Shown here piece by piece: positions 9,994 through 48,023 of a stretch of DNA of 64,000 nucleotides. The DNA lies in contig JAKSRW010000012.1 of NCBI GenBank assembly GCA_024403355.1, positions 16,797 through 80,796 of the forward strand. Direction: 5' to 3'. The notes below the pieces were generated by a model that was not told the DNA's origin, ran no database searches, and saw only the letters and a list, made by a program, of their open reading frames with translations. Positions within the stretch are counted from its first letter, which is position 1, and every line of letters starts with the position of its first letter. The position numbers and the translations under genes were made by a program. Source of the DNA: Lachnospiraceae bacterium. GTDB taxonomy: Bacteria; Bacillota; Clostridia; Lachnospirales; Lachnospiraceae.

Positions 9994-10004
9994 GAAACCA
10001 CCTC

Positions 10005-12574: not shown

Positions 12575-12810
12575 CTTACCAGTTCTCCTTTACAGTCATA
12601 AAAACATATCATTTTCAAAGTAACACATATTGCAAAAAACTATTATAATAATACCATAATTATATGATTTTTACAACTAAACAGACAAAAAACAGCCCAA
12701 ACAAAAACAAATCACATATATGCTCCTAACCAATTCAATATAAGAATTTTGTTCATTTCGTTGAATTGTTCTAACAATGCAACCATTTCCACTCAACGTC
12801 AAAAGCCTGC

Positions 12811-12845
12811 CGGCCACATTTGTCCCGCAGGCTTAAATACATATT
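12811..12845 (-). terminator. intrinsic terminator downstream of the acid-tail gene cluster
   Basis: Stem AAGCCTGC…GCAGGCTT followed by a T-rich tract on the minus strand. Confidence 0.45.
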
Positions 12846-12968
12846 TTCTCTTACCCCATATCCTCCACACATTTTTCAAAATGTGCACATCCAATACACA
12901 GCTTCCTGCACTGCCGCTCATTCCGTCGCAGGTTCCATAGCCAAAACAGCAGCCTGTTCATCATTTAC

Positions 12969-13412: not shown

Positions 13413-13588
13413 CGCGCCGTGCGTACGTAGGGCTTAGTCGGTGCATGCTCTGCGCAGCGCACCTCCTTCTGGAAGAAGGCGCAGGTCATATAACCCTCAC
13501 AATGCTCCCTGTCTGCCAGAAGCTTAGTGCATCGATTGATATCCGCATCCAAAGTGCAGATGTACTCTTCAGAATCTCCCATACTCAA
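13376..13588 (-). CDS. small Cys/His-rich protein (70 aa)
   Basis: Overlaps both neighbours (ATGA coupling at 13585-13588). Motifs CTKLLADREHCEGY and CAEH resemble the C-x2-H-x-C units of the upstream gene. Confidence 0.45.
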   Translation of the reverse strand: MSMGDSEEYICTLDADINRCTKLLADREHCEGYMTCAFFQKEVRCAEHAPTKPYVRTARWYEVYYSKRRA

Positions 13589-14523: not shown

Positions 14524-14690
14524 ATTAGTTGCACAATCCTTTCCAAATACGATATTTCATCATCCAACAGAACTCCGCAGCAACTTAAAAATCATAATCG
14601 TCAGAATCCTGACTCGCGTCCTCTACAGCAGAATATCCTCTTCCTACATCAGAGCTGTCCGGTCATCAGAATTTCCTCCTCATATTATTT

Positions 14691-14939
14691 TTATTTAGAC
14701 TCATAATTCTGATACTTATAACAATCCCAGCAATATATCACGTCACTTCTCCAACAGTTATCCCCACAGCAAATACATTTTTTCTCATCCTTACCATTCT
14801 GCTTCTTTTTCAGATCAACAAATACATTTTTACTTCTGTTAACAGTCATATTAATCATATTTTTCCTCCACAAATACATTTTCCAGTTTCTTAAACTATA
14901 CTCACCTAAGAATTCTCTTGTAATCCTCCCGATATTCAA
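14691..14939 (-). CDS. small Cys-rich protein; the true start may be an internal Met
   Basis: Motif CICCGDNCW…YCWDCY. Confidence 0.3.
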   Translation of the reverse strand: MNIGRITREFLGEYSLRNWKMYLWRKNMINMTVNRSKNVFVDLKKKQNGKDEKKCICCGDNCWRSDVIYCWDCYKYQNYESK

Positions 14940-15249
14940 ATGATAACATGATACAAGGGAGTTTTATCGGACTCTGAGAAACATTTAAAGAACATTTTAT
15001 AACTTCTATGTCGCCACTAAGCCGTCCTCCGCTGCGATGCCATTGTCATTATTACCACCAGCAGGTCATCTATCGGGCCCGGGCAGGCATCAATAGGTGA
15101 TATAACATATAAAATAGCTAATACAAGTAACATACCTTTCATTCCATTCTTCATAACGATTTCCTCCTGGTAAATAATTTTCTTTTTCGTTTTAGATTAT
15201 AGCGAATACTTCATAACCCTTTTTGCAAATAAACTGTAATAATTTTGAA

Positions 15250-15405
15250 TCAGTAGCCATAGCCACGTACTTGCTTACGCGTGTCAGCCTTTAACTCATT
15301 TCTGGACGGACGAGTGGCAAGCTTGTGATCCATAGTTCCCATTTTAATGTTAATCATAACTCTGTAGCGTTTAGCACACTGCTTCTTCATATTCTTCTCA
15401 AGCAT
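15250..15405 (-). CDS. 51-aa basic protein of unknown function
   Basis: Strong RBS GGAGGAAATTACA-ATG. Sequence MLEKNMKKQCAKRYRVMINIKMG… Not in the ORF track because it is under 60 aa. Confidence 0.3.
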   Translation of the reverse strand: MLEKNMKKQCAKRYRVMINIKMGTMDHKLATRPSRNELKADTRKQVRGYGY

Positions 15406-15888
15406 TGTAATTTCCTCCGTTTAGTTTGAACTTTTAACTTTGTCAACAAATAATGGTTTCATCGTTTCTTTTGTTGTTATGTAGCTATTATAAAGCAGAA
15501 TAAAAAAGCCTTTTCGTAAAAAAGTGTAAAAAAGAAAGCCTTTCCTAAAAACAGAAAAGGCTATTTTTCATAAAATATCAAATTGTGATTCGTTCAATGT
15601 CCTGGCGGGCTTCATCGGTTTTCTAGCCAAGCCCATCGCCTCCCAAACGGGCCTTTAGTAAACTTTTAAGCTCAGTAACGGCCTCTTCGCCGGAGTGATA
15701 CCTTCCGGTATCAACTAATCTATTCTCAAATTCATCAAACAAATCTGCCTGACTATCATAGTATAATTTCCTCAAAGCTGAACTACTTCTATAAAAGCCT
15801 GTAACAATCTACGTTTTTTTAACAGTTCCTGCCATTCTTTCATACGTAATGTCCTCCCTTTACTTGATCGATTTGCCACAATCCCCCC

Positions 15889-16818
15889 TCAATAATTATC
15901 CTCCCAGTAGTCAAAGGCATCATCCCAGCTGTCGAAATCGTCCTCCCATTCATCCGCGAAATCATCAGCACTGTAATAATTATGGACATCGTAAGGGTCC
16001 GCATAGAATGAATAACCCGAATAGCTATTTTTTTGTCCACCGGAGCTTCCGGATGAATTATTCTTATGCTTGTTATTATCTTCATCCAGCTTATATCTGT
16101 AGTCATTCGTAGAATAAACATAACCATACTTTGCATCCGCATGAAAAATCTGTTTTCCATCAACCACCCAGTCATAGGCCATATGCCTCCCGCCCCCTAT
16201 AATATCCATTTCTATCTTGGATTTGCTCGGTACTCCCAGTGAGCAAACATCAAAATATATCGTTTTCATACCAGCTCTGGGTAACTCGCCCGCATAGTGT
16301 TTTTCCTCACTGTAGAACCTGATATTCTCCGGATTCTTTTGTTTTAAAGCAATGACATGCGATTTAACTTCATAAAAAAAGTCCTGATACTTTCCTGAGT
16401 ATTCCCAGTTAAAATAGTGATCCACTATCTCAAATATGTCCCTGTAATTAACATTCTCTACAACTGTCTCGGAATATATAGAATCTAAAACTTTACTGTT
16501 ATCCTCCAAAAAGATATCCAACCAATAAAGGGCTTCGGCATCTTTATTCCCATATTTAGCCATTGTATCTAATTCTATTCTTTTATCGCACTCAAGATAT
16601 TCCCCTTTCTTAAGTGTATTATATGCTTCCTCGAGCTTATAATCGTCAGTGTTTATCCGGTAATAACGAACAGTTAATGCAATAATAACTATCAATACAA
16701 CCGCAGCAACCGCGATATAACACCTTATAATCTTACGCTTAGAAGCTGTTGTGCGTCCCTCTAAATTAAGCATTCCAAGCGAAATTACACCTATTATTCC
16801 CATTATTATTCCCGCCAT
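15889..16818 (-). CDS. two-TM membrane protein with the conserved aromatic-acidic C-terminal tail; third paralog
   Basis: Tail DPYDVHNYYSADDFADEWEDDFDSWDDAFDYWEDNY. The middle domain differs from the other two paralogs. Confidence 0.65.
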   Translation of the reverse strand: MAGIIMGIIGVISLGMLNLEGRTTASKRKIIRCYIAVAAVVLIVIIALTVRYYRINTDDYKLEEAYNTLKKGEYLECDKRIELDTMAKYGNKDAEALYWLDIFLEDNSKVLDSIYSETVVENVNYRDIFEIVDHYFNWEYSGKYQDFFYEVKSHVIALKQKNPENIRFYSEEKHYAGELPRAGMKTIYFDVCSLGVPSKSKIEMDIIGGGRHMAYDWVVDGKQIFHADAKYGYVYSTNDYRYKLDEDNNKHKNNSSGSSGGQKNSYSGYSFYADPYDVHNYYSADDFADEWEDDFDSWDDAFDYWEDNY

Positions 16819-23464: not shown

Positions 23465-25990
23465 TTAGATGTCCTCCGAAATATCCTCCGCCAGAACAAC
23501 ATTATCCTGCTTATGCTCGCCGCCCTCCATGGTCATCTTTATAAAGGCCTTGGCATTACGCTGTTCAACACTGTCAATTACCTTTGCAATATACTTCTCG
23601 GTTCTTGCAAGTCCGCCTTCTTCCGTTGCCCTGCAAATGCATCTGATTCTCTTGGTAAGGAGCTCATAGGCTGCATTTTCCATCTGAAGTCCGGCCTTCT
23701 CAAGCTTGTATTCAGCAAGTCTTAACAAATCATCCTGTCCGAAATTCGGGATGGTAATTCTAAGCGTGAAGGCTTCATTAAGGCTTGTATTGCCCTTGAA
23801 AATTTCAGAAAGATTTCTTCTGTAATCCATCAGTACAATGGATGCCGAATCGCCGTACTTCTTACAGATATCAGTTATTTCAGCGGTGGCCTTGGCCGAA
23901 AGATTTCCTGCTCTGTCTACCGCAAAGCAGCGGCTTACAAGCTTGGGCGCTCGGTCTGTAATGCTGATTTCGTTTACCTTTGCGGCATCTGTCCAGATAA
24001 TGGGTGTATTTCCCAGAATACCGGCGGTCTTCATAATGCCCGAAAGTCCGTTAACAATTACCTTCTTGCCGGCGCCTCTTTCTCCGAATACGCAGTAGCT
24101 GATGCTGCCGCCCTTTGGATTAAGGATTGCCTCAAGCACGCCAAGCAGCTGTCCCGCAATTTCAGGCTGATATGCAAAGAAACCGAAATAGCGCTCCATG
24201 GTGGTTCTGGTTTCGTTAAAGAAGGCTGCTACGCAGCTGTTCGGTCTGGGTTCAATCGGCGCAAGCTTTTCCGACCTGTGAATTTCATGCTCTGAATTCG
24301 CTGTGCGCGGTCTGTTATCCTCGTCAAAAATCGCACCGACCAGGGATGCGAGATATTCCTCTTCGCTGCTTTTGGGCTGTTCAGGCGCTGCCTTTTGGCG
24401 CTCTTCCGCCTCCGTCTCTGCTTCAGCACGCTTTTCAGCCTCTGTCTGCGCACGCTCTTCTTCCTTACGGCGCTCTTCAGCCTCAATCTCAGCTCGCTTT
24501 TCTGCCTCTGTCTGTGCACGCTCTTCTTCGGCTCTTCGGCGCTCCTCTGCCTCAATCTCAGCTCGCTTCTCTGCCTCTGTCTGTGCACGCTCTTCTTCGG
24601 CTCTTCGGCGCTCTTCTGCCTCTCTTTCGGTGCGGTGCTGCTCTACCTCAAGCTGGCGCTGGCGCTGCTTCTCGCGCTTACGCTCACGGCGGCTCTTTTT
24701 ATCATTCTTATTATGCGCTGCGGGCTCATTCAATGAACCAAGCTCACGTTCAACCACCTCAAGCAAGGCTGAATTGTGGCTCTCCTCCGCAGGCTCTTCG
24801 GCCACAGCATCTAAAACTCCGGTCCATATCTTAATGTCATCATCAGCAGCCTTTTTATTATCGTCTGCGGCTCCGGCTAAAGCGCTTTTTTCATTATCCT
24901 TTACGCCGGCCTCAGCCTGATTCTGCTGCCTGCTTCTATCCCTGTCATTGACCGTAACGGGTCTGTTAGCCAGCTCATTTTCTTCTCTGAGCGCAGCCTC
25001 TACAGCCTTTGCTATATCATCGTCTGTCAGCTCACCGCTAACGCTTCCAAGCATCTCCTCAACAGTAGCCGCAGATTTGGGCTCTGCCGCTTTCTCAGTG
25101 GGCTCAGGCTGCTTTGTGTCTGCTGCAGCCACAGCCGCATTTTGCTCTGCCCCGGCATTCTTCATTTCCTCTGCCTGCTCCTTAGCTTCTATCTCAGCCA
25201 GCGCCTCCTTGGTGATCCAGCCGCCCGCAGCAAGCTTTGTCTCGCCCATATTCTGCTCAGGTCCGGCCTCTGCCTGCATTGCCTCCCTGCGCTCACGGCG
25301 TCTTGCGCGGCGTTCCTCCTCGGCAGCCTTCTTTGCCGCCTCCTCATCATTATTTTCCTGAGGAACAGGCTTTACAAGCTTGTCCGCAACAGTCTTTTCA
25401 GACATTTCCTTAAAGGTCAGCTCACCCTTATAATATGCCTTAAGAGCCTTCGCACGCTCCACAAATTCACCGTCGCCAAACCAGAGAATAACCTCATCAC
25501 AGATGCTTACACACTTATCAACCTCACCCATCTTGTGATATACCTTCGCAAGCTCATAGCCCCAGTTATCAAAAAACTCGGCATCCTTCAAAGCCTCAAG
25601 GCTGGCCGCAAGCTCCTCAAGAGGCTTATTCTTCAGACGGTCAATCTTGTATCTGAAAATATAATTGTAATAGTCCCCGGCAGCAAGCTCCTTATACTCC
25701 TTATAGTATTCTTCAGCCTCATCTGCCTGCTTAAGTCTGATGGAAAGATTTACAAGCTCCATAACAACACGGCGGCTCTTCTGACGCTCATACATAATTT
25801 CAAAGCATTCCTTGGCCTTGCTCAGCATACCGTTATGAAGATAGACCTGTGCCAGAACGCTGCAGTCAAAATTTCCCTTGATTTTTCTGGGATCCATTCC
25901 GTCAGTCAGTTCAAGAGCCTCCTCATTTCTGCCCTGACGCAGCATCTCCCTGATTTCCTCGATTTTTACGTAGTTCTTATACTTGTCCAT
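23465..25990 (-). CDS. TPR-repeat protein with a central charged tandem-repeat region and a C-terminal domain bearing a degenerate P-loop (SpoVK/CbbX-like?)
   Basis: N-terminal TPRs. 23-aa repeats RAEIEAEERRRAEEERAQTEAEK. GERGAGKKV in place of a Walker A motif. Confidence 0.6.
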   Translation of the reverse strand: MDKYKNYVKIEEIREMLRQGRNEEALELTDGMDPRKIKGNFDCSVLAQVYLHNGMLSKAKECFEIMYERQKSRRVVMELVNLSIRLKQADEAEEYYKEYKELAAGDYYNYIFRYKIDRLKNKPLEELAASLEALKDAEFFDNWGYELAKVYHKMGEVDKCVSICDEVILWFGDGEFVERAKALKAYYKGELTFKEMSEKTVADKLVKPVPQENNDEEAAKKAAEEERRARRRERREAMQAEAGPEQNMGETKLAAGGWITKEALAEIEAKEQAEEMKNAGAEQNAAVAAADTKQPEPTEKAAEPKSAATVEEMLGSVSGELTDDDIAKAVEAALREENELANRPVTVNDRDRSRQQNQAEAGVKDNEKSALAGAADDNKKAADDDIKIWTGVLDAVAEEPAEESHNSALLEVVERELGSLNEPAAHNKNDKKSRRERKREKQRQRQLEVEQHRTEREAEERRRAEEERAQTEAEKRAEIEAEERRRAEEERAQTEAEKRAEIEAEERRKEEERAQTEAEKRAEAETEAEERQKAAPEQPKSSEEEYLASLVGAIFDEDNRPRTANSEHEIHRSEKLAPIEPRPNSCVAAFFNETRTTMERYFGFFAYQPEIAGQLLGVLEAILNPKGGSISYCVFGERGAGKKVIVNGLSGIMKTAGILGNTPIIWTDAAKVNEISITDRAPKLVSRCFAVDRAGNLSAKATAEITDICKKYGDSASIVLMDYRRNLSEIFKGNTSLNEAFTLRITIPNFGQDDLLRLAEYKLEKAGLQMENAAYELLTKRIRCICRATEEGGLARTEKYIAKVIDSVEQRNAKAFIKMTMEGGEHKQDNVVLAEDISEDI
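24400..24640. repeat. ~3.5 tandem copies of a 69-nt coding repeat inside the 23465-25990 gene
   Basis: Direct DNA repeat encoding the 23-aa EAE/RRA-rich unit. Confidence 0.7.
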
Positions 25991-30575: not shown

Positions 30576-31142
30576 TTCGTCTCCTCTTTCCCACTGCCAT
30601 GTTAATATTTGGGGGACTCCCGTATAAGGTCTGCTACCCGACAGCGGGAGCATACAGCCTATCACAACGGATTGTGTCCGGGAAATCCTCATACCACAAG
30701 TACTTGCACATTTTACCATAACGCATAAATAAAGTCAAAACTATGGGGAGCTTTGTTGACGCAAATTTCCGTGTTTTTCAAAAAATATGCACAATTTTAT
30801 CGCCGTCAATTATGCACTTTTACTATCTTAAAATGTATTCCTGCTACAATATATCGTATTTTCTCTGTTAATATTGCACAATTACTTGTGCCTCTTTTTG
30901 TTCATAATTCACAGACTTTTAAAAAATCTCCATATTTTTCACCCAATATCTAGTTAATGGCGCTTTTTTATAATACTACATCTTGTTTTTAAATTTTCGG
31001 ACATTTTAACTAAAGATTTCTTTGATTATATACCTATTATAGTGTATACTGTATCTTGGAAATTAATATTTTAGAATATTTACGATTTTCTGCAACCTTT
31101 TACGGAATGCAGAGTGTTATATATGAAAGGTTAGGTATAAAA

Positions 31143-32642
31143 ATGCAGCTTGCTGATCTTCTTGGCTTTGACCACATTACAATTCAGTGCCACGACAATC
31201 CCGATGCGGATGCACTCGCATCAGGCTATGCCCTCTACACATATTTTAAATCGCTGGAAAAGGACGTGCATTTTATCTACAGCGGCAAGTTCCCGATTCA
31301 GAAGTCGAATCTGAAGCTTATGCTGGAGCATATCAACATTCCCATAGAGTATATTTCTCCGGTGGTAAGTCCCCGCAAGGGTCTGTTAATCACCGTTGAC
31401 TGCTGCTACGGTGAAGGAAATGTGACTCACTTTGATGCTGATGAAATCGCGGTCATCGACCATCATCAGACCTACTGGCCCGGCCCCTATTCAGAGATTA
31501 ATCCCCTGCTTGGCAGCTGTTCCACACTCGTATGGAAGCTGCTTACGGATGCCGGCTTTGATGTAAATACCGACAAAAAGCTCTGTACTGCGCTCTACTA
31601 CGGACTCATGACCGATACCGGCAATTTTGCCGATATTCATTATCCTGTGGACCGTGATATGCAGGACGCTCTTTATTATGACAAGGCATTAATCAGTCTT
31701 TTTGTGAACAGCAATATTTCCATCGACGATATGGTTATCGCAGGAAAGGCAATGATTAATTACACCTTTTATTCGAACTATAAGTGCAGCGTTATTCATG
31801 CGGATGCCTGTGACCCCAATATTCTCGGTCTTATAAGCGATCTGACCCTGCAGGTAGACAAGTTTGATATCTGTCTTGTTTACAACGAGCTTAATGACGG
31901 CTTCAAAATTTCCGTAAGAAGCTGTGTAAAGCACATCCGTGCCAACGAATTTGCAGGCTATATCTGCCGCGGTGTAGGTTCAGGCGGCGGACATTCCGAC
32001 AAGGCCGGCGGCTTTATTTCAAAGACTAAGCTGCAGGAGCTGACAGGCGATCTCATTATCGACAATTTCCTGTCGGAGAGAATTAAAACCTATTACGAGC
32101 AAAGTGAAATCATAGATGTGCGCAACTACACACCCAATACCGACGGCATGCGCCTCTATGCAAAAAAGCGCTTCCAGCTCGGCTATGTGGACCCCACAGA
32201 GTTCCTTCCCATCGGTGCAAGAGTTACGGTTCGTACCATCGAAGGCGATGTGGACCTGCTTGTTGACGGCAGCTATTATATCATGATCAATATCAAGGGC
32301 GAGATTTATCCTCAGAGAATTGACCGCTTCCAGAAATCCTACGAATTCTCCGATGAGCCCTACAACCTTGATACTGAGTACATACCTACCCTTCATTGTC
32401 ATTCAAACGGCTCCGTATACAAGCTCAACCAGTATGCGCACAGCTGCTATGCACATGCAGGAGCAAAAATTCTTGCACGCCCCTGCAATAAGATTGTTAA
32501 AATTTTCACTCTTTGGGATGATGAAAACTATTACCTCGGCAATCCCGATGACTATTTTGCCTGCAGAGTGGATGCCCCCGAGGACATTTACATCATTGCA
32601 AACGATATCTTCAATCTTACATATGATGAGGTAAAAGTTTGA
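31143..32642 (+). CDS. DHH/DHHA1-family phosphoesterase (NrnA-like) with a ~200-aa uncharacterised C-terminal extension
   Basis: DHH motifs (DHITIQCHDNPDADALAS, ITVDCC, IDHHQ) and DHHA1 GGGH (GSGGGHSDKAGG). The tracked ORF starts at a TTG; an ATG at 31143 is preferred. Confidence 0.7.
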   Translation: MQLADLLGFDHITIQCHDNPDADALASGYALYTYFKSLEKDVHFIYSGKFPIQKSNLKLMLEHINIPIEYISPVVSPRKGLLITVDCCYGEGNVTHFDADEIAVIDHHQTYWPGPYSEINPLLGSCSTLVWKLLTDAGFDVNTDKKLCTALYYGLMTDTGNFADIHYPVDRDMQDALYYDKALISLFVNSNISIDDMVIAGKAMINYTFYSNYKCSVIHADACDPNILGLISDLTLQVDKFDICLVYNELNDGFKISVRSCVKHIRANEFAGYICRGVGSGGGHSDKAGGFISKTKLQELTGDLIIDNFLSERIKTYYEQSEIIDVRNYTPNTDGMRLYAKKRFQLGYVDPTEFLPIGARVTVRTIEGDVDLLVDGSYYIMINIKGEIYPQRIDRFQKSYEFSDEPYNLDTEYIPTLHCHSNGSVYKLNQYAHSCYAHAGAKILARPCNKIVKIFTLWDDENYYLGNPDDYFACRVDAPEDIYIIANDIFNLTYDEVKV

Positions 32643-32702: not shown

Positions 32703-35700
32703 ATGAGTTTAGAAAATGTACATTATGATGCTTTTATAAGCTACAGACATTCAGAGCATGATATGTTTGTCGCAACAAATCTGCAGAAGAAGCTGGAGGC
32801 CTTCAAGCTTCCCAAGCCCCTGGCGGCAAATGCAAACGGCAAGACACGTATCGAGCGTGTATTCCGTGACCAGGACGAGCTTCCTCTGGCAAGCAATCTG
32901 AGCGACCCTATCGAGGAGGCACTTAAGAATTCCGACTTTCTTATCGTAATCTGCAGTCCCCGTCTTCCCGAGTCTATGTGGTGTAAAAAGGAAATTGAGA
33001 CCTTCGCAGCCCTCCACGGCCGTGACCGCATTCTTGCGGTACTCTGCGAGGGCGAGCCTGCCGAGTCATTTCCTCCCTTCCTGCAGAGTGAAACCGTGGA
33101 AACGGTGAACGAACAGGGCGAGAAAATCCTCGTTACACGTGCCATAGAGCCTCTTGCGGCAGAAGCAAGAGCAAAAACCCAGAAGGAAACCAAAAAGCTT
33201 CTGGATGATGCGGTGCTTCGTATCGCGGCTCCCATTTTCAATCTCAATTATGATGACCTCAAGCAGCGCCATAAGGAGCAGCGTTTTAAAAAGCTCGCGG
33301 CCATCTGGGGCTCCATCAGTGCGGCTGTGCTTATTTTCGCGCTTGTATGTATCATTATGCTTTTCAGAATAAGCGCACAGAACAAAACCATCGAGCAGCG
33401 TAACGCCGAAATTGAGACTCAGAATGCAGAGATTACAAAACAAAATGAAGAAATAACACTGAAGAGTCAGGAAATCCTTAAGCAGAACGAGGAAATATCC
33501 AATAAAAACAATGAGATTTCCAAGCAGAATGATGAGATTACCAGACAGCGTGACGAAATAGCCGCACAGTATATCGCAGCGGCAAAAAACTATGCGGTTT
33601 CAATGGTTTCTGTTTCGGACAGACTTATTTCCGGCGGCCGCAGAATTGATGCAATTGCCGCACTCAGAAATGCAATGCCGGCAAGCATCGACGGGGACGA
33701 GCTTCCCTACAGTGCCGAGGCCCACAGCGCATTGGCAAATCTTACAGAGGCCTACAATGACGGCAGCACATTCATTCCCTCACGCGTAATAGAGACACCT
33801 TTTACAATTTCAAGCTATTCCGTAAGCCCTTCGGGAAAAACCGTTGCCATCTATGATATCGAATTCGGCGTTCAGGTTTTCGACACCACCACAGGCAGGC
33901 TTATTTATGAGAACACCAATGCCAGCGGCGACTACAGCTATTCGGCAACTCTTGTAAATGACAAGAGTCTGATTTTAGACAATAACGGACTTTGCAAAAC
34001 AGACCTCGAAACAGGCGAAGAAAGCAGTTATACAGACAACTATGACTGCTTCAGTTCAATCTTTTCGGTATGGGATTGTATAAGCATGCCTAATTGCGGA
34101 CGCTACATCATTACAGACAATAAAAACATCCTTGTTTTTGATGCTGCAGACGATTCTCTTAAGGCTCAGTTAAATCTTAACGCCGACTTTGAAAACAGTA
34201 CAAGATCTCTTAATTCTGTGGGAATCACAGATGACGGAAAATACCTTTATGCACTGGTTCTGACCAATTATTCGGACAGTCAGGAGCTTTCAATCTATGA
34301 CCTGACAGACGGAAGTCTCTGCAACAGCACACCTCTCGACATTCCGCTTTCAGCTTCAATTGCCAGTGACGGCAAGAGAGTTTTTGTATCCTACCCTTAT
34401 ACCGATCCCAATGTAAAGTATCTTTTCTCGGATGCAAAAATCGAAGCCTACAGTATAAAAACCGGTAAGCTTCTTTGGGAAAACACCTATAAGCAGTATG
34501 GAATTGATTATATAGGTGAAATAACCTACTGCTCTGACGGTGATTATCTGCTCGGCTGCAGTTCTTCAAATTTCGAGTCGATTGACGTCAAAACAGGTGA
34601 AATAATAGAGCATATCAGCCTTGATTCAATGAAAATGAACTACAGTATCCGCAATAACGGACGACTGGTTCTCATTTTCTGCAACGATGAATCAGTATTG
34701 TTATGGTCTCCTCTGACCAACAGATATTATGAGTATACGGACACACTTTATAAGTTTGCGCCCAAAGAAACTATGCTCAGCTGCGGAATGTATGGTTCCA
34801 CAATTATTGTCTGCCCGTCAAACGAGAACTATCTTGCTATCTACGAGCAGTCAAAGGTTGAGCAATTTCCTCTTCTGGGCAATGCACGCAGCTCCGACAG
34901 GCTTTCTGCAAACGGCAAATACGCCGTGCATCAGGCCGGTGACGGTTACTCGGTTTATTCTACGGAAAACGGTCAGGATTTATTTGCAATAGGTGAAACC
35001 GGATACCTGGCACATTTTACGGATGACGGTAAATATCTTGTGAATACAGAAGATGATGTTGTAAATATTTTTGATATCGCAGAGGCTAAGCTTTCACACA
35101 GCATATATCTTCCCGACCTCACAAGCATTAATGCCGAAACCTGCATGTCACCTACCGGCAAATATGTTGAAATAACAGAGCGCGGAAGCGACTATTCAAT
35201 TATCGGAAAAGATATTTTCTTAACAGAAAGCGGTGATTTTGTTACATCAGCCCCCGCAAACAGGGATACAATTCTTACCTTTGCGGATGGCCGCGATATT
35301 TACGCAAGCACCTATTCAGCAGCCGCCAACAGCAATACTTCTTCTGTTAAGCTTTATAATTTCGGTGCTGACGAGCCCTACGCAGAGAAGGAGCTTGATA
35401 TCAGATTCCTTTCCGATATGTTTTTCACCGATGATGCGAAATACCTCTTTGCAGAGTATAATAACAGTACAATTGAGATATATGACACAGATTCGCTTCA
35501 GCTTGTAAATACCCATTATGGTATTTCAAAGAAGCCTATGTCCGCACACTATATCAAAGAACATGATATATACGGCTTATTCTTCGGCGATGAAATGTAT
35601 CTTCTCAACAGCAGCATGGAAGTAATTTCCAAAATCACCGGTGCACACAAATATGATGCGGAGCATGATGCCTTCGTTATCTTCGTTGATGACGAAATCA

Positions 35701-35807
35701 GCTATGCACCTTATATGAGCTATGAGGATATTATTGCCAAAGCGGATGCAATTCTTGACGGATATGAAATCCCTGCCCGCATCAAGGCTGAAAACGGTAT
35801 AAAATAA
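32703..35807 (+). CDS. TIR-domain protein with a TM helix, a heptad coiled coil and a large C-terminal beta-propeller (WD40/PQQ-like)
   Basis: N-terminal TIR (YDAFISYRHSEHD…FRDQDELPLASN…WCKKEIE). TM AAIWGSISAAVLIFALVCIIMLF. Repeats QNAEITKQNEEIT…QNDEIT. About eight xS/TxDGKY beta-strand repeat signatures. Confidence 0.75.
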   Translation: MSLENVHYDAFISYRHSEHDMFVATNLQKKLEAFKLPKPLAANANGKTRIERVFRDQDELPLASNLSDPIEEALKNSDFLIVICSPRLPESMWCKKEIETFAALHGRDRILAVLCEGEPAESFPPFLQSETVETVNEQGEKILVTRAIEPLAAEARAKTQKETKKLLDDAVLRIAAPIFNLNYDDLKQRHKEQRFKKLAAIWGSISAAVLIFALVCIIMLFRISAQNKTIEQRNAEIETQNAEITKQNEEITLKSQEILKQNEEISNKNNEISKQNDEITRQRDEIAAQYIAAAKNYAVSMVSVSDRLISGGRRIDAIAALRNAMPASIDGDELPYSAEAHSALANLTEAYNDGSTFIPSRVIETPFTISSYSVSPSGKTVAIYDIEFGVQVFDTTTGRLIYENTNASGDYSYSATLVNDKSLILDNNGLCKTDLETGEESSYTDNYDCFSSIFSVWDCISMPNCGRYIITDNKNILVFDAADDSLKAQLNLNADFENSTRSLNSVGITDDGKYLYALVLTNYSDSQELSIYDLTDGSLCNSTPLDIPLSASIASDGKRVFVSYPYTDPNVKYLFSDAKIEAYSIKTGKLLWENTYKQYGIDYIGEITYCSDGDYLLGCSSSNFESIDVKTGEIIEHISLDSMKMNYSIRNNGRLVLIFCNDESVLLWSPLTNRYYEYTDTLYKFAPKETMLSCGMYGSTIIVCPSNENYLAIYEQSKVEQFPLLGNARSSDRLSANGKYAVHQAGDGYSVYSTENGQDLFAIGETGYLAHFTDDGKYLVNTEDDVVNIFDIAEAKLSHSIYLPDLTSINAETCMSPTGKYVEITERGSDYSIIGKDIFLTESGDFVTSAPANRDTILTFADGRDIYASTYSAAANSNTSSVKLYNFGADEPYAEKELDIRFLSDMFFTDDAKYLFAEYNNSTIEIYDTDSLQLVNTHYGISKKPMSAHYIKEHDIYGLFFGDEMYLLNSSMEVISKITGAHKYDAEHDAFVIFVDDEISYAPYMSYEDIIAKADAILDGYEIPARIKAENGIK

Positions 35808-36496
35808 TGAATCTCAGATATGAAACAAAAAGACTCATCCTGGCGGCCGGCAATGATAGTATGGCCGGCGCCGTGGCTGATTATCTTACGAGAAACCGTG
35901 AGGATTTTTCGAGATACGATGTCGAAATGTCAGATGAGTATTACACCGCCGACTATCAGGCCAGAGCCCTGAAGGCTGAGCTGCATCTTTTACTGCGCTC
36001 GGCGGGCTGCCGCTTCTACCTCTTTTTGAAGAAGCCCTCGGACGATATCAGGCTTTCAGAGCTTCGTGCAAGCGCCGGTATCGACTCATTTTCCGGAACC
36101 GATACCTTCGGGGCCTCCCGACAAAAGGAGGAGCTTTATAATAAATACGCCTCCGAGCTGAGCAGGATTTCGTTAGATAAACGCAGAATTATCGGTAATA
36201 TCAGCTTTGCTTACCTTAACGGTGAGGACGGTCACCAATGCACTCTCGGCTACAAAATAGACAGTGACTACCGCCGCAGGGGCTACGCCTACGAGGCTGC
36301 CTCATTTTTACTTGATATCGTAACAAGCGAATTTTCAGGCATAAATCTGATAGAGGCGGATATCCTTCCCGAAAACAGGGCCTCCCTGGCACTTATTAAA
36401 AAGCTGAAATTTGAATACACCGGTCTTAAAAGAAGCGGCCACAATATAGCCGGCATGGACCGTGACAATTTAAAATTCGCATGGATACGCAGCTGA
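35807..36496 (+). CDS. GNAT-family N-acetyltransferase
   Basis: Start overlaps the stop of the TIR gene (ATGA). Acetyl-CoA-binding-type motif (…RRRGYAYEAA…). Confidence 0.65.
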   Translation: MNLRYETKRLILAAGNDSMAGAVADYLTRNREDFSRYDVEMSDEYYTADYQARALKAELHLLLRSAGCRFYLFLKKPSDDIRLSELRASAGIDSFSGTDTFGASRQKEELYNKYASELSRISLDKRRIIGNISFAYLNGEDGHQCTLGYKIDSDYRRRGYAYEAASFLLDIVTSEFSGINLIEADILPENRASLALIKKLKFEYTGLKRSGHNIAGMDRDNLKFAWIRS

Positions 36497-37157: not shown

Positions 37158-39134
37158 ATGATAATTCAGATTGATATTAATTTTTCACCTAATTTCATAT
37201 TGAAGCATCAGTTCGACCGGGTGCTTCCCGTAGACCTGGCAGTAGCCTCATTAAAGGCTCTGAAGCTCGAGCAGTTTGAAGCCCTCTCAAGCGACCTCAC
37301 AAAGGCCAGCTGCAGGGCTAATTACAAAAGCTGCAGTGAGCTTCTGTCTCTTGTGATTCCGGCTCTTTCAAATACCTCCAGACTCAGTTCTGAGGACTTT
37401 ATAATCGAGGACAACGGGAATTTTATAAAGGCCTTCGCCCCCGAATGTCTGACAATCACACTTAATGAACCTGCATCAAATAATCCCGCATCAAAGCAGT
37501 CAATGCATGATATCAATAACAAGGTGGGCTGGGATGATTTCAAGGAGCTCTGTGCCGAAATTATGACCGTGGCTCCCCAGATTAAGCGAAACGGTACCTT
37601 TAAAAGCTTCATGTTCCAGAATTACCTTATCTCGGTAAATGAGGGCTACGGTCTTTCTACCGCTCTGGACGAATTCGCGGATCTGATTGAAAAGCTCGAG
37701 CTCTTTCAGTTTCTTGGTGACCAGCATGTACTCGAGGTTCACCTTACGACAAAATCCGGCGGAAGCGATACAATGACCCTCGACGAGGCCAGCGATGCCC
37801 TCTACAATACAGACGGCCGCGGCAAGCTTATCTGCTTCGATATTAGTGAATTTATCGAAAAATCAAAGCATACCGAGTTCAAACAGTTTATCCAGAAAAT
37901 GGTGGACCTTCAGGAATATTATCTCTTTGTATTCCGCGTGCCCTTCCTCGAACCGGATGCATTAAAAACCATTCAGAGACTGCTGGCAGACGTGCTTTAT
38001 ACCCGTGTCATCACGGTTCAGCCCTTCAACAATGAGCAGCTGAAGGAATGCGCAATCCGCGCACTTTCGGAGTTTGGCTACGCAGCCGATGAACAGGTCT
38101 GGGATGTATTCTTCTCGCGTCTGAGTGAGGAAAAGAGTGACGGCCGCTTCTACGGAATCCAGTCCGTCCGCAAGGTAATTTACGAAATGCTCTGGCTTAA
38201 GGCCAAGGCAGCCGCAGCCAATCCGGATGTTGACGAAAAGCTCATACACCGTGAGGAAATACTTGAGCTTTCAGCCAGCTACCTTAAGAAGGCAAAGGAC
38301 GGCTTTGATTCACTTGCAGAGATGGTCGGCATGGAAAAAATTGCCGAACGCATACGTGAAATTGTGGCTCAGGTTCGCCTCGCCATTGAAAATAAAACCA
38401 TGGAGCGTCCCTGTCTGCACATGCGCTTCGTAGGTGCTCCCGGTACAGGAAAAACCACCGTTGCCCGAATACTCGGTCAGATTTTCCGCGAGAACGGAAT
38501 CCTTCGAAACGGATATTTCTTCGAATTTTCAGCCCGGGACCTGTGCGGCGAATATGTAGGTCAGACAGCACCAAAGACCTCCGCAATCTGCCGTGACGCA
38601 TACGGCTCGGTACTCTTTATAGATGAGGCCTACGCCCTTTATCAGGGTGACGACCGAGGCAATGACTACGGCCGCGAGGCCCTTACTACCCTTGTTTCAG
38701 AAATGGAGAATCACCGAGATGATATGGTGGTGGTAATGGCCGGCTATAAGGATGATATGAACAAGCTGATGGAGGGAAATGCGGGACTTCGAAGCAGAAT
38801 GCCCTTCCTTCTGGAATTTGAGAGCTATTCAAAGGCACAGCTTTTAGAGATTTTTATGTCCTTTGTAAGCAGGCATTTCAAATACGAGGAGGACTTCACA
38901 GAGGCCGCCCGTCAGTATTTTGATTCACTCTCGGACGATTACATGAAATCCGCAGAATTTGCAAATGCCCGTTTTGCCCGAAATCTTTATGAGCGCTGCT
39001 GGTCAAAGGCCGCAATGCGTACCTCTCTTTCGGGAGTAAAGGATATCATACTGAACCGTGAGGACTTTACAGCCGCCTCAAGCGAAAAGGAATTTTCGGA
39101 AAAGCTCGCTATTCACAGTAAAATCGGATTCTGA
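37158..39134 (+). CDS. SpoVK/CbbX-type AAA+ ATPase with a ~400-aa N-terminal domain of unknown function
   Basis: Walker A GAPGTGKTT, Walker B LFIDEAY, and an AGYKDDMNKLMEGNAGLRSR region characteristic of the SpoVK/CbbX/EccA clade. Confidence 0.75.
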   Translation: MIIQIDINFSPNFILKHQFDRVLPVDLAVASLKALKLEQFEALSSDLTKASCRANYKSCSELLSLVIPALSNTSRLSSEDFIIEDNGNFIKAFAPECLTITLNEPASNNPASKQSMHDINNKVGWDDFKELCAEIMTVAPQIKRNGTFKSFMFQNYLISVNEGYGLSTALDEFADLIEKLELFQFLGDQHVLEVHLTTKSGGSDTMTLDEASDALYNTDGRGKLICFDISEFIEKSKHTEFKQFIQKMVDLQEYYLFVFRVPFLEPDALKTIQRLLADVLYTRVITVQPFNNEQLKECAIRALSEFGYAADEQVWDVFFSRLSEEKSDGRFYGIQSVRKVIYEMLWLKAKAAAANPDVDEKLIHREEILELSASYLKKAKDGFDSLAEMVGMEKIAERIREIVAQVRLAIENKTMERPCLHMRFVGAPGTGKTTVARILGQIFRENGILRNGYFFEFSARDLCGEYVGQTAPKTSAICRDAYGSVLFIDEAYALYQGDDRGNDYGREALTTLVSEMENHRDDMVVVMAGYKDDMNKLMEGNAGLRSRMPFLLEFESYSKAQLLEIFMSFVSRHFKYEEDFTEAARQYFDSLSDDYMKSAEFANARFARNLYERCWSKAAMRTSLSGVKDIILNREDFTAASSEKEFSEKLAIHSKIGF

Positions 39135-46250: not shown

Positions 46251-46529
46251 TAGTTATTATTCTAACACTTGTTAAAGATATTGGCAATCCGCTTCGCCGC
46301 CTGCTCATATAAAAGCTGCACCTCGCTCTTTACAAGCTGTCAATCATAATTACCTCAAAAGCCGTATCAGTATTAGAAATCTAATTTGCCGTTTTCGAGG
46401 AATAAATACGCTTATTTTTGCTGCAAACCGCTATACAATCGTCATTTTATAGGCTATAATCTAATCACAGGCAGCAAAGAAAAGCCTGTCACACACAGTG
46501 CGTTAAGCACGGAAGGAGAGGTTATTTTT

Positions 46530-48023
46530 ATGAGTACGGGACAGATTATTTTAATCGCCGCAATCGTGGTAGCGGTACTAATCATCTTATTAACAGGTTA
46601 TGTTAAGGCACCGCCGGATGTTGCTTATATCATTTCAGGTATGAAGAAGAACCCCAAGATTCTCATTGGTCGTTCAGGCATCAAGGTTCCATTCTTTGAG
46701 CGAAAGGATAACCTGATTGTTAAGCAGATAAGTGTAGACATTAAAACAAACGGTTATGTACCTACTCTCGACTTCATCGGTGTAGATATCGATGCAGTTG
46801 CAAAAATCAGAGTGAAGACAGATCCCGACGGAATCAAGCTTGCTATGAAGAACTTCCTTAATATGAAGGAGGAGCAGATTATCACAGCTCTCACAGATTC
46901 CCTTCAGGGTAACATGCGTGAAATTATCGGTACTGTTAAGCTCAAGGAATTATGTACAGACCGTAAGAAGTTCGGTGATGAGGTTCAGGAGAAGGCCCAG
47001 AAGGATATGAACGCCCTGGGTATTGAAATCATCTCATGTAACATTCAGAGAATCGATGACGAGAAGGGTCTTATCGTTGCCCTCGGTCAGGACAATATGT
47101 CACAGATTCAGAAGGATGCTTCTATCGCAAAGGCTCAGGCTGAGCGAGATGTTGCAATCGCAGAGGCAGAGGCTAGCAAGGCCGCAAATGAGGCCAGAGT
47201 TTTAGCCAACACCGATATCGCTATTAAGCAGAACGAATTAAAGATCAAGCAGGCTGAATTAAAGAAGGAATCAGACTTAAAGCAGGCTGAGGCCGATGCA
47301 GCCTACAAGATTCAGGAAGAGTCACAGCGTAAGATTATCGAGGCTACAGCCGTTGAGGCTGATATCGCCCGTCAGCAGAAGTCAGTTGAGCTCCGTAAGC
47401 AGGAAGCAGAGGTTAAGGAGCAGGAGCTTGCCGCTTCAATCAAGAAGCAGGCAGATGCCGACAGATACCGTCAGCAGCAGATGGCCGATGTAGAGCTTTA
47501 CCGTCGTCAGAAGGACGCTGAGGCCCGCAAGTTCGAGATGGAACGTGAGGCAGAGGCTATGCGTATCAAGGCCGATGCCGTTAAGTATCAGGCTGAGCAG
47601 GATGCAGAAGCTATCCGTGCAAGAGGTGTCGCTGAGGCAGAGGCTATCCGTGCAAAGGGTATCGCTGAAGCAGAAGCTACCGAAAAGAAGGCAGAGGCTA
47701 TGTCAAAGATGAAGGAAGCCGCAGTCCTTGAAATGTTCTTCAAGGTACTTCCCGAAATCGCTGCAAACGTTGCAAAGCCTCTCGAGAACATCGACAAGAT
47801 TACAATGTACGGCGAAGGCAATACAGCAAAGCTTATTGAGGATATCACAAAGTCCACAACCCAGATTTCTACCGGTCTTACCGAGGGTCTCGGCTTCGAC
47901 TTAAAGAGCATGCTCGCAGGTGCACTCGGCGGAAAGGTAGTCGGTGATGCAGTTAAGAATGCAGTAAAGTCTGAGGATAAGGATACTTTCACAGAGACTG
48001 CTGCCACAGAAGCTGCAGAATAA
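46530..48023 (+). CDS. flotillin-like SPFH protein (FloT/YuaG family)
   Basis: N-terminal TM, SPFH domain and an EA-rich coiled coil (AEAEAIRAKGIAEAEA). Start moved to MSTGQ, where RBS GGAAGGAGAGG is present. Confidence 0.78.
   Translation: MSTGQIILIAAIVVAVLIILLTGYVKAPPDVAYIISGMKKNPKILIGRSGIKVPFFERKDNLIVKQISVDIKTNGYVPTLDFIGVDIDAVAKIRVKTDPDGIKLAMKNFLNMKEEQIITALTDSLQGNMREIIGTVKLKELCTDRKKFGDEVQEKAQKDMNALGIEIISCNIQRIDDEKGLIVALGQDNMSQIQKDASIAKAQAERDVAIAEAEASKAANEARVLANTDIAIKQNELKIKQAELKKESDLKQAEADAAYKIQEESQRKIIEATAVEADIARQQKSVELRKQEAEVKEQELAASIKKQADADRYRQQQMADVELYRRQKDAEARKFEMEREAEAMRIKADAVKYQAEQDAEAIRARGVAEAEAIRAKGIAEAEATEKKAEAMSKMKEAAVLEMFFKVLPEIAANVAKPLENIDKITMYGEGNTAKLIEDITKSTTQISTGLTEGLGFDLKSMLAGALGGKVVGDAVKNAVKSEDKDTFTETAATEAAE

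What the first reader, a model, noticed from the sequence alone, without database searches (positions are those of the whole stretch)
31143..32642. Atypical DHH/DHHA1 phosphoesterase with a 200-aa extra domain, encoded directly upstream of a TIR protein
DHH/DHHA1 enzymes hydrolyse nanoRNA, pAp and cyclic or linear dinucleotides. Placing one beside a TIR NADase-type gene suggests degradation or processing of TIR-generated nucleotide signals, as a signal reset or self-immunity function, rather than a housekeeping NrnA role.
Basis: inference. Interest (0 to 1): 0.55.

Follow-up and report, generated by a model that had tools for sequence, protein, structure and literature searches.

The report
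TIR-partnered DHH phosphodiesterase with PGDYG-like domain
The gene encodes an intact nucleotide-cleaving DHH enzyme with an uncharacterised extra domain, and proteins carrying that domain sit beside or are fused to TIR signalling proteins in many unrelated bacteria, which points to an undescribed TIR nucleotide-signalling partnership.

Summary
Window 31143-32642 (+) encodes a 499-aa DHH/DHHA1 phosphoesterase with all catalytic motifs and a 182-aa C-terminal domain. It lies 60 nt upstream of a 1034-aa TIR / single-TM / coiled-coil / beta-propeller protein.

The enzyme is not an NrnA orthologue. It belongs to a family found in at least 591 species-level genomes. The best 80 loci, the only ones inspected, are nearly all labelled Lachnospiraceae.

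The extra domain is a divergent PGDYG (PF14083) domain of unknown function.

The TIR gene is the most conserved neighbour of the DHH gene: 48 of 77 informative species loci. The two proteins co-diverge (r = 0.86).

Outside this orthologue group, 11 of 13 other proteins carrying the C-domain also have a TIR gene adjacent or fused. Their catalytic parts vary: active DHH, DHH plus PGDYG, class III cyclase, GGDEF. The TIR families involved are unrelated to each other.

Neither gene is strictly dependent on the other. The locus is chromosomal and is not a defence island.

Most likely (about 0.5) the enzyme binds and hydrolyses a small nucleotide of a TIR pathway. This is inferred, not shown. I found no literature on the partnership.

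The parts
31022..31050 (+). Promoter-like site (TTGATT-17-TATACT) about 90 nt upstream of the DHH start
   Evidence: Consensus scan, 9 of 12 matches. Weak: the number of such sites in the region does not exceed the shuffles.
31125..31130 (+). Ribosome-binding site GAAAGG, 12 nt before ATG 31143
   Evidence: Read from the sequence.
31143..32642 (+). DHH/DHHA1 phosphoesterase gene with a C-terminal PGDYG-like domain (499 aa)
31173..31604 (+). DHH catalytic domain (aa 11-154). Motifs: DNPDAD aa 18-23 (31194-31211), D86, DHH aa 106-108 (31458-31466)
   Evidence: Pfam PF01368, E = 1.3e-12. Residues invariant in alignments A1 and A2.
31803..32045 (+). DHHA1 substrate-binding domain (aa 221-301). GGGH at aa 281-284 (31983-31994); K255/S257/R259/S260 invariant in the 27-sequence alignment A1
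   Evidence: Pfam PF02272, 25.8 bits against a cut-off of 25.9. Fold match to NrnA and GdpP. Invariant columns.
32094..32639 (+). C-terminal all-beta domain (aa 318-499), a divergent PGDYG-like domain with an inserted segment
32686..32694 (+). Ribosome-binding site AGAGAAAGG, 8 nt before the TIR gene start. The 60-nt DHH-TIR spacer has no terminator-like site
32703..35807 (+). TIR / TM / coiled-coil / beta-propeller protein gene (1034 aa), the conserved partner
32703..33272 (+). Cytoplasmic TIR domain plus juxtamembrane segment (aa 1-190). Motifs: YDAFISYRH, RVFRD..ELP, W93-C-x-x-E97 (E97 = 32991-32993), EPLAA(D/E)xR
   Evidence: TIR_2, E = 1.1e-10. Invariant columns in 25 orthologues. A profile aligns the WCxxE Glu with the plant TIR (AtTIR) motif.
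33291..33383 (+). Single transmembrane helix (aa 197-227). The K/R-rich segment before it implies the TIR domain is inside and the C-terminus outside
   Evidence: Hydropathy, found at the same place in 43 of 47 orthologues.
33384..35804 (+). Extracytoplasmic coiled-coil stalk (QNxEI repeats) and beta-propeller region. Fast-evolving (19-36% identity, against 47-68% for the TIR domain)
   Evidence: Pfam PQQ_2 E = 2.9e-7 (30.8 bits, cut-off 27.6); the WD40-type beta-propeller families score below their curated cut-offs. tblastn identities.

Best explanation
Shown:
- The gene encodes a cytoplasmic, catalytically intact DHH/DHHA1 phosphodiesterase of a distinct family. It is not NrnA and not GdpP.
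- Its C-terminal PGDYG-like domain marks it as the dedicated partner of TIR-domain proteins.
- In this window it is co-transcribed with a receptor-like membrane protein. That protein has a cytoplasmic TIR domain with the catalytic Glu retained, one TM helix, and a variable extracytoplasmic beta-propeller.

Inferred mechanism:
- An external cue acting on the ectodomain drives TIR assembly and production of an NAD+-derived or other small nucleotide.
- The DHHA1 plus C-domain module binds that nucleotide.
- In the DHH-active version found here, the enzyme hydrolyses it and so sets or terminates the signal.
- In relatives where the DHH part is lost or degenerate, the same module is joined to class III cyclases or GGDEF domains. 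There it would act as a receiver.

Status: domain content, motif integrity, operon layout and the TIR association are shown. The substrate, the direction of signalling and the physiological role are inferred.
For: 1. Intact catalytic and substrate-binding motifs, and an NrnA/GdpP-type fold.
2. TIR is the most conserved neighbour: 48 of 80 loci, against glnS 36, DUF2225 32 and purH-like 16. It is kept in at least three different flanking contexts. It is mostly directly downstream with short or overlapping junctions. It is also found convergent (4 loci), upstream (1) or 3 kb away (1).
3. Reciprocally, DHH is the only recurrent neighbour of the TIR family: 19 of 80 loci, with all other neighbours at 5 or fewer.
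4. Co-divergence of DHH and the linked TIR domain: r = 0.86, Mantel p = 0.001, 63 pairs.
5. Independent associations with unrelated TIR proteins:
   - a fusion TIR-DHH-Cdom (L161);
   - TIR-TM-DUF6273 (L163);
   - TIR-TM-LRR (L164);
   - TIR-TM plus a solo TIR (L168);
   - TIR-propeller (L174);
   - TIR-TPR (L175);
   - TIR-zinc-ribbon plus class III cyclase plus degenerate DHHA1-Cdom (L165, L166, L167, L169);
   - TIR-TM-propeller next to degenerate DHH-Cdom-GGDEF (L172).
6. All these TIR proteins keep the Glu at the catalytic position.
7. Precedent from the literature: DHH-superfamily enzymes hydrolyse 3'-5' and 2'-3' cyclic linkages and cyclic di- or oligonucleotides. A DHH-DHHA1 nuclease degrades the type III CRISPR messenger (as cited in PMC7824862).
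Against: - There is no biochemical evidence. No DHH enzyme is known to me to cleave cADPR-type TIR products.
- The DHH gene is equally conserved in 29 of 77 loci with no adjacent TIR gene. In 15 loci overall glnS is present and TIR absent, mostly with glnS directly following DHH; in 9 a WYL regulator lies just upstream.
- Most close TIR homologues in metagenomes have no DHH gene within 6 kb (48 of 65 informative loci).
- The DHH-Cdom-HAD clade has no TIR neighbour (L162, L173).
- The association follows the C-domain even where GGGH and DHH are lost. Hydrolysis is therefore not the conserved property.
- GGDEF-EAL genes sit directly upstream in 3 loci. This hints at c-di-GMP or pGpG turnover instead.
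- PADLOC has no model for the protein.
Confidence: 0.5

Rival explanations
1. Receiver or effector model. The C-domain, with DHHA1, senses the TIR signal or docks on the TIR assembly. It then switches an output enzyme that acts on a different nucleotide. Here that output would be the DHH phosphodiesterase acting on, for example, pGpG, pApA, cNMP or short RNA. In relatives it would be a cyclase or GGDEF domain. The protein would lie downstream of TIR and would not be its off-switch.
For: - The C-domain is the constant TIR-associated element. The catalytic partner varies: DHH, class III cyclase, GGDEF, HAD or an extra PGDYG domain.
- Versions with degenerate DHHA1 (no GGGH) still sit beside TIR genes.
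- The C-domain is built of SH3/Tudor-like barrels, which are typical interaction modules.
- GGDEF-EAL or GAF-GGDEF genes occur in several clusters.
Against: - In canonical DHH/DHHA1 enzymes the ligand bound by DHHA1 is the substrate (established knowledge of NrnA and GdpP).
- In the window protein every catalytic residue is intact.
- There is no evidence of allostery.
Confidence: 0.25
2. Housekeeping model. The protein is a general nanoRNA or linear-dinucleotide phosphodiesterase of Lachnospiraceae. Its adjacency to TIR is an inherited operon arrangement with no biochemical coupling.
For: - Core-genome synteny (purH-like genes, DHH, glnS, DUF2225).
- At least 591 species carry the family.
- Conservation is equal with or without a TIR neighbour.
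- The family is vertically inherited.
Against: - TIR adjacency outlasts every other neighbour and survives changes of context, order and strand.
- TIR association recurs with unrelated TIR families, in distant lineages and as a fusion.
- A canonical NrnA-like gene coexists on L150, and a GdpP gene on L169.
Confidence: 0.13
3. Thoeris-like anti-phage abortive-infection system. The TIR protein would be the phage sensor and the DHH protein a nuclease effector, carried on a mobile defence island.
For: - The TIR domain gives weak hits to PADLOC candidate PDC-S66 (E = 8e-9) and to ThsB (E = 0.004), and to ThsB_TIR in Pfam.
- The ectodomain is hypervariable.
- A CHAT-TPR protein lies beside one relative (L175).
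Against: - The DHH protein gives no PADLOC hit.
- Flanks are housekeeping genes and the context is not a defence island.
- There are no full-length homologues on plasmids. The only 'phage' records are mislabelled bacterial fragments.
- The TIR domain is unusually conserved and co-diverges with DHH.
- Known Thoeris effectors (SIR2-SLOG, Macro-TM, caspase-like) are absent.
Confidence: 0.1

Closest known systems
NrnA / Pde2 / Rv2837c / TM1595 stand-alone DHH-DHHA1 phosphodiesterases (nanoRNA, pAp, pApA, pGpG)
   Same: Two-domain DHH-DHHA1 fold. All metal-binding and GGGH motifs are present. Best structural matches at E about 1e-18.
   Different: - About 20% identity only, and no hit to the NrnA NCBIfam model.
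- An extra 182-aa C-terminal domain.
- It coexists with a canonical 321-aa NrnA-like gene (L150).
- It has a dedicated TIR neighbour.
GdpP (c-di-AMP phosphodiesterase), catalytic domain
   Same: Top Foldseek hit (5xt3 and 5xsp, E = 1e-18).
   Different: No TM, PAS or GGDEF N-terminal region. A separate GdpP gene is present in a genome that carries the related TIR/cyclase/Cdom cluster (L169).
PGDYG protein family (Pfam PF14083, uncharacterised; bacteria and phages)
   Same: C-domain aa 46-181 aligns to PGDYG domains by profile-profile comparison (probability 96.7%, E = 4.4e-10). Some relatives carry an extra bona fide PGDYG domain. Weak fold hits to phage PGDYG proteins.
   Different: The Pfam model does not hit the window protein at E below 0.01. 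The domain is longer, with an N-terminal beta-subdomain of about 45 aa and an inserted segment. The function of PGDYG itself is unknown, and no paper was found.
Thoeris (ThsB TIR signal producer plus signal-activated effector)
   Same: A TIR protein with the catalytic Glu is genetically paired with a second protein that has a putative nucleotide-binding module.
   Different: - The partner is a DHH/DHHA1-PGDYG-like protein, not SIR2-SLOG, Macro-TM or caspase-like.
- The TIR protein is a single-pass membrane protein with an ectodomain.
- The genes are chromosomal and vertically inherited.
- It is not detected by PADLOC.
Second-messenger off-switch nucleases (for example the membrane-associated DHH-DHHA1 nuclease that degrades cyclic oligoadenylate, and ring nucleases)
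   Same: A DHH-DHHA1 enzyme is proposed to hydrolyse an immune or signalling nucleotide (precedent as cited in PMC7824862).
   Different: A different pathway (TIR, not Cas10), a different domain make-up, and activity not demonstrated.
Toll-like receptors (animal) and other TIR-repeat receptors
   Same: Repeat ectodomain, single TM helix and cytoplasmic TIR domain. The TIR profile finds TLR15, TLR2, TLR1 and TLR6 and plant TIR domains as the best solved relatives.
   Different: Inverted order (TIR at the N-terminus). Beta-propeller rather than LRR in this window. Bacterial, and the signalling output is unknown.

Membership tests
DHH/DHHA1 phosphoesterase superfamily | DHH-domain motifs I-IV (DxD, D, DHH, D) that coordinate the metals | tested here: met
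   D21/D23, D86, D106-H107-H108 and D158 are present and invariant in 120 homologues. Pfam DHH E = 1.3e-12.
DHH/DHHA1 phosphoesterase superfamily | DHHA1 domain with a GGGH motif | tested here: met
   G281-G-G-H284 is invariant. Pfam DHHA1 scores 25.8 bits, 0.1 below the cut-off. The fold is confirmed.
DHH/DHHA1 phosphoesterase superfamily | Two-lobed fold joined by a linker | tested here: met
   AF2 pLDDT 89.9. Foldseek against GdpP, NrnA and TM1595 at E about 1e-18 over about 335 columns.
NrnA (bifunctional oligoribonuclease / pAp phosphatase) orthologue | Match to the NrnA equivalog model; about 310-340 aa with no extra domains | tested here: not met
   No NrnA model among the NCBIfam hits at E below 0.01. 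The protein is 499 aa with an extra domain. The 321-aa gene on L150 hits the NrnA model at E = 9.5e-31 and PDB NrnA at 1e-30, whereas the window protein hits PDB NrnA only at about 1e-7.
NrnA orthologue | Hydrolysis of nanoRNA or pAp | not testable with these tools
   Enzyme assay needed.
GdpP | N-terminal TM helices, PAS and degenerate GGDEF before DHH-DHHA1 | tested here: not met
   The protein starts directly with the DHH domain.
PGDYG (PF14083) | Match to the family profile, including the (P)GDY/W motif | tested here: inconclusive
   The Pfam HMM gives no hit at E below 0.01. hhalign to five PGDYG domains gives probability 96.7%, E = 4.4e-10, and the motif is present as NPDDYF (consensus KPGDY).
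Thoeris | ThsB-type TIR plus a known ThsA-type or other recognised effector, detected by defence-system models | tested here: not met
   PADLOC gives no hit for DHH. The TIR domain gives only a weak ThsB hit (E = 0.004) and candidate PDC-S66.
Pycsar / Pucsar (cyclase plus TIR or TM effector) | A nucleotide cyclase gene in the operon | tested here: not met
   No cyclase in window 30-39 kb. Distant relatives of the C-domain module do sit with class III cyclases and TIR genes, but the Pucsar preprint mentions no DHH or third gene.
Catalytic (NADase-type) TIR domain (partner protein) | Conserved catalytic Glu in the WxxxE / alpha-C region | tested here: met
   E97 is invariant in 25 orthologues and aligns with the Glu of the AtTIR SSWCLDEL motif. 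That this Glu is the catalytic residue rests on my knowledge of plant and SARM1 TIR domains.
Catalytic (NADase-type) TIR domain (partner protein) | NAD+ cleavage or cyclisation activity | not testable with these tools
   Assay needed.

The most novel reading that the evidence does not exclude
The DHHA1 plus PGDYG-like module would be the dedicated receptor and turnover module for a nucleotide made by TIR domains. It would define a chromosomal, vertically inherited TIR signalling pathway in bacteria. Toll-like-receptor-style membrane proteins with variable ectodomains (beta-propeller, LRR, DUF6273) would sense external cues. Their TIR signal would then either be hydrolysed (DHH-active forms, as in this window) or converted into cAMP/cGMP or c-di-GMP (cyclase and GGDEF forms). 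One DHH-Cdom enzyme could serve several paralogous TIR receptors in the same genome.
Probability: 0.35. Interest if true: 0.85.

Novelty: new variant of a known kind. Interest (0 to 1): 0.7.

Why it matters
Bacterial TIR proteins are known mainly as phage-triggered NADases or signal producers in mobile defence systems such as Thoeris. Here a TIR protein looks like a stable membrane receptor of abundant gut and rumen bacteria. It has a dedicated, previously undescribed partner module.

If the DHHA1/PGDYG-like module binds or cleaves a TIR product, three things would follow:
- It would assign a first function to the PGDYG family.
- It would add a new class of TIR-signal phosphodiesterase or receiver.
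- It would point to cross-talk between TIR signals and the cAMP/cGMP and c-di-GMP networks.

It would also provide a simple two-gene system for asking what bacterial 'Toll-like' receptors sense.

Tried and rejected
- NrnA orthology: rejected.
- GdpP membership: rejected on architecture.
- Known defence system: PADLOC gives no hit for DHH.
- Mobile element or phage origin: there is no full-length plasmid homologue. The two 'Bacteriophage sp.' records with homologues are bacterial chromosome fragments carrying pyk, aroE, an MCP and a Na/H exchanger.
- Riboswitch or leader upstream of the gene: none found.
- A second DHH gene in the window: none found.
- Other window neighbours as system components: GNAT, tadA, the SpoVK-like AAA protein, veg and the weak (sub-threshold) cNMP-binding-domain protein are essentially absent from the related loci. 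Each is found in 0 of 80 loci, except the weak cNMP-binding-domain protein, found in 1 of 80.
- Sequence relatedness between the various partner TIR proteins: BLASTP found none. The associations are therefore independent.
- Literature: nothing was found on PGDYG, on DHHA1 with TIR, or on a DHH partner in Pucsar or in the domain-centric defence screen.
- Whole-genome checks were not possible. These would cover nrnA in this genome and TIR genes elsewhere in genomes whose DHH locus lacks TIR.
Full report
**1. Observation**

Window 31143-32642 (+) is an ORF of 499 codons. It has a GAAAGG ribosome-binding site 12 nt upstream.

Pfam finds DHH (aa 11-154, E = 1.3e-12) and DHHA1 (aa 221-301, 25.8 bits against a cut-off of 25.9). 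It finds nothing for aa 310-499. The metal-binding and substrate-binding motifs are D21/D23, D86, D106-H107-H108, D158 and G281-G-G-H284. All are present and invariant in 120 homologues.

An AlphaFold model (pLDDT 89.9) matches GdpP, NrnA, Rv2837c, TM1595 and DhhP over the first 320 or so residues, at Foldseek E about 1e-18.

Sixty nucleotides downstream, with its own ribosome-binding site and no terminator-like site between, starts a 1034-aa protein. Its parts are:
- an N-terminal TIR domain (TIR_2, E = 1.1e-10);
- one hydrophobic helix (aa 197-227), preceded by a K/R-rich stretch;
- a QNxEI-repeat coiled coil;
- a beta-propeller region.

**2. What the DHH protein is**

It belongs to a well-defined family of about 500-aa proteins, conserved over their full length at 49-85% identity. 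Nearly all of the best 80 loci are labelled Lachnospiraceae.

It is not an NrnA orthologue:
- It does not hit NCBI's NrnA model.
- It matches solved NrnA proteins only at about 1e-7.
- One related contig, L150, carries a canonical 321-aa NrnA-like gene next to truB. That gene hits the NrnA model at E = 9.5e-31 and PDB NrnA/Pde2 at 1e-30. The same 12 kb also holds the TIR gene and the 500-aa DHH gene.
- Another related locus has a separate GdpP gene.

The window holds no second DHH gene. The rest of its genome could not be examined.

**3. The extra domain**

Residues 318-499 fold with high confidence (pLDDT 91.7) into an all-beta domain.

Profile-profile comparison shows that residues 46-181 of the domain are homologous to PGDYG (PF14083): probability 96.7%, E = 4.4e-10. 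PGDYG is an uncharacterised family on which I found no paper.

A profile of the domain finds 729 proteins in a 1.84-billion-protein representative library. Their architectures are:
- DHH-DHHA1-Cdom, as in this window;
- the same plus a bona fide PGDYG domain;
- the same plus a HAD phosphatase;
- degenerate DHH-DHHA1-Cdom-GGDEF;
- class III cyclase joined to a degenerate DHHA1 (no GGGH) and the C-domain;
- free degenerate DHHA1-Cdom proteins of about 340 aa;
- one TIR-DHH-DHHA1-Cdom fusion.

**4. Is the TIR pairing conserved?**

*Around the DHH gene.* In 80 species-level loci, a homologue of the TIR domain (47-68% identity) lies within 8 kb in 48. Three further loci are too short to judge, which gives 48 of 77. 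Of the 48:
- 42 are directly downstream on the same strand, often with overlapping or very short junctions;
- 4 are convergent;
- 1 is upstream;
- 1 is 3 kb away.

Two loci keep only TIR remnants.

No other gene of the window's neighbourhood is conserved. The commonest alternative neighbours are housekeeping genes: glnS in 36 loci, DUF2225 in 32 and purH-like genes in 16. The TIR gene is retained in 27 loci that lack glnS. The pair therefore survives changes of flanking context.

Pairwise distances of DHH and of the linked TIR domain correlate at r = 0.86 (Mantel p = 0.001, 63 pairs). The pair is old and inherited together.

*Against obligate coupling.* 29 of 77 loci have no adjacent TIR gene. 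In 15 loci overall glnS is present and TIR absent, mostly with glnS directly following DHH, and in 9 a WYL regulator sits just upstream. In a reciprocal search centred on the TIR domain, only 17 of 65 informative metagenomic loci had the DHH gene within 6 kb. Even so, DHH was the only recurrent neighbour. Linked and unlinked TIR clades interleave in a tree.

**5. The decisive comparative result**

I looked at the gene neighbourhoods of C-domain proteins outside the orthologue group, choosing them by architecture. A TIR gene was adjacent or fused in 11 of 13.

| Locus | Arrangement |
|---|---|
| L161 | TIR-DHH-Cdom as one ORF; true start MKIFISYRR |
| L163 | TIR-TM-DUF6273 directly upstream of a DHH-Cdom gene 40% identical to the window's |
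| L164 | TIR-TM-LRR overlapping the start of DHH-Cdom-PGDYG |
| L168 | DHH-Cdom-PGDYG followed by TIR-TM and a solo TIR, in a Gram-negative context |
| L174 | TIR-propeller directly upstream of the DHH-Cdom gene |
| L175 | TIR-TPR one gene away; CHAT-TPR on the other side |
| L172 | A TIR-TM-propeller of the window's own family, divergent from degenerate DHH-Cdom-GGDEF |
| L165, L166, L167, L169 | (GAF-GGDEF), soluble TIR-zinc-ribbon, class III cyclase, degenerate DHHA1-Cdom, with the last two separate or fused |

Only the HAD-fusion clade (L162, L173) lacks a TIR neighbour.

These TIR proteins show no pairwise sequence similarity to the window's TIR protein. The associations are therefore independent. 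All of them keep the Glu at the catalytic position.

The constant element of the partnership is TIR plus the DHHA1/C-domain module. The enzymatic domain attached to that module varies.

**6. What kind of locus this is**

The genes are chromosomal:
- Flanks are housekeeping genes, both here (veg, GNAT, tadA) and elsewhere (purH-like, glnS, tatD/ksgA, infC-rpmI-rplT, rpsF-ssb-rpsR).
- No plasmid carries a full-length homologue.
- The two 'phage' records that do are mislabelled bacterial fragments.
- PADLOC has no model for the DHH protein. It gives only weak TIR-domain hits for the partner.

The TIR domain is well conserved (mean distance 0.39). The ectodomain is very divergent, at 19-36% identity. 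That pattern is expected for a receptor whose sensing part diversifies.

The TIR profile's best solved relatives are TLR15/2/1/6 and plant TIR domains.

**7. Mechanism**

*Shown:*
- an intact DHH/DHHA1 catalytic machine with a PGDYG-like appendage;
- an operon with a TIR(in)-TM-propeller(out) protein;
- a lineage-spanning genomic partnership between TIR domains and the DHHA1/C-domain module.

*Inferred (confidence about 0.5):* the TIR protein makes a small nucleotide when its ectodomain is engaged. The DHHA1/C-domain module binds it. In the DHH-active form encoded here, the enzyme hydrolyses it and so sets or terminates the signal.

Precedents exist in the literature. DHH enzymes hydrolyse cyclic and linear nucleotides, and a DHH-DHHA1 nuclease degrades cyclic oligoadenylate (as cited in PMC7824862).

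*Main rival (0.25):* the module is a receiver, or docks on the TIR domain, and controls an output acting on another nucleotide. This is favoured by the catalytically dead versions joined to cyclases and GGDEF domains.

*Housekeeping enzyme with inherited synteny (0.13):* hard to reconcile with the independent TIR associations.

*Classical mobile Thoeris-like defence system (0.10):* poorly supported by the genomic context.

A single DHH-Cdom enzyme might serve several TIR receptors. The window itself has a second TIR protein at 54387-56810. This would explain why many TIR paralogues stand alone. It is speculation.

**8. Novelty and caveats**

I found no description of a TIR-DHH/DHHA1-PGDYG partnership in the searchable literature. 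I rate it a new variant of a known kind, namely TIR nucleotide signalling with a dedicated partner.

Caveats:
- ORFs in the fetched loci were called with a simple script, so some junction lengths are approximate.
- The metagenomic sample is redundant.
- The 13 extra contexts are a small, architecture-chosen sample.
- The identification of the catalytic Glu rests on alignment and prior knowledge.
- No whole-genome co-occurrence test and no biochemistry could be done.

Noticed in passing
window 54387-56810 (-): A second TIR protein in the window: 807 aa with weak, sub-threshold TPR hits, TIR_2 (E = 6e-12) and four BspA-type LRR_5 blocks. It lies in a low-GC stretch (about 0.33). This is a TLR-like domain combination, so the genome carries several TIR-repeat proteins.
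   Followed up: partly
L165:2837-6017; L167:3217-7466; L169:1289-6029; L166:2-3064: A recurrent chromosomal cluster: (GAF-GGDEF), a soluble TIR protein with a C-terminal double zinc ribbon, a class III nucleotide cyclase, and a degenerate DHHA1 plus C-domain protein. The last two are sometimes fused into one protein of about 820 aa. It sits among ribosomal-protein genes.
   Followed up: partly
L161:337-2436: A single ORF fusing a complete TIR domain (MKIFISYRR...) to DHH-DHHA1-Cdom. GGGH is changed to SGGA. Seen on one contig only.
   Followed up: yes
L162 (MT836060.1) and L163 (MT836910.1): GenBank 'UNVERIFIED: Bacteriophage sp.' records from human faecal viromes that are bacterial chromosome fragments. 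They carry pyruvate kinase, shikimate dehydrogenase, an MCP, a Na/H exchanger and an M23 peptidase.
   Followed up: yes
L008:7009-7989 and 8 further loci (L007, L024, L029, L039, L046, L050, L066, L079): A WYL-WCX regulator gene lies upstream of the DHH gene on the same strand, directly upstream (13-70 nt) in seven of the nine loci, in nine loci in total. All nine lack the TIR gene.
   Followed up: no
L009, L013, L034 (just upstream of position 8001): An 875-882-aa GGDEF-EAL protein gene abuts or overlaps the start of the DHH gene in three TIR-less loci. This hints at a link to c-di-GMP or pGpG turnover.
   Followed up: no
L055:9508-9924; L063:9526-10596: Truncated remnants of the TIR gene between DHH and glnS. 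This suggests ongoing loss of the TIR partner in some species.
   Followed up: partly
window 35807-36496 (+): The start codon of a GNAT (RimJ-like) acetyltransferase gene overlaps the stop codon of the TIR gene. tadA and a SpoVK-like AAA gene follow on the same strand. None of these is conserved next to the pair elsewhere, at 0 of 80 loci.
   Followed up: yes
window 23465-25990 (-) and 37158-39134 (+): Two large proteins with C-terminal AAA modules flank the region; the second is SpoVK/CbbX-like, the first carries a P-loop seen by eye only. The first (841 aa) has a long, highly charged E/R/A-rich tandem-repeat segment (EERAQTEAEKRAEIEAEERRRAE...).
   Followed up: no
window 8536-16818 (-): A low-GC block (0.31-0.35) holds an Hsp70-like ATPase gene (10005-11477) flanked by several ORFs of 300-490 aa with no Pfam hit. 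It may be an acquired island.
   Followed up: no
window 3680-3882 (-): A T-box leader (100.6 bits, above gathering score) upstream of the gene at 2436-3518.
   Followed up: no
window 46386-48023 (+) and 52327-54201 (-): Two SPFH/flotillin-type genes. The second has an N-terminal Cys-rich CPCC segment and lies next to the TPR-TIR-LRR gene.
   Followed up: no
L175:862-4806: A 1314-aa TPR-CHAT (caspase-like protease) protein gene lies directly upstream of a DHH-Cdom-PGDYG gene. That gene is followed by a 304-aa unknown protein and a 1007-aa TIR-TPR protein. This is a conflict-system-like context, unlike the Lachnospiraceae loci.
   Followed up: no
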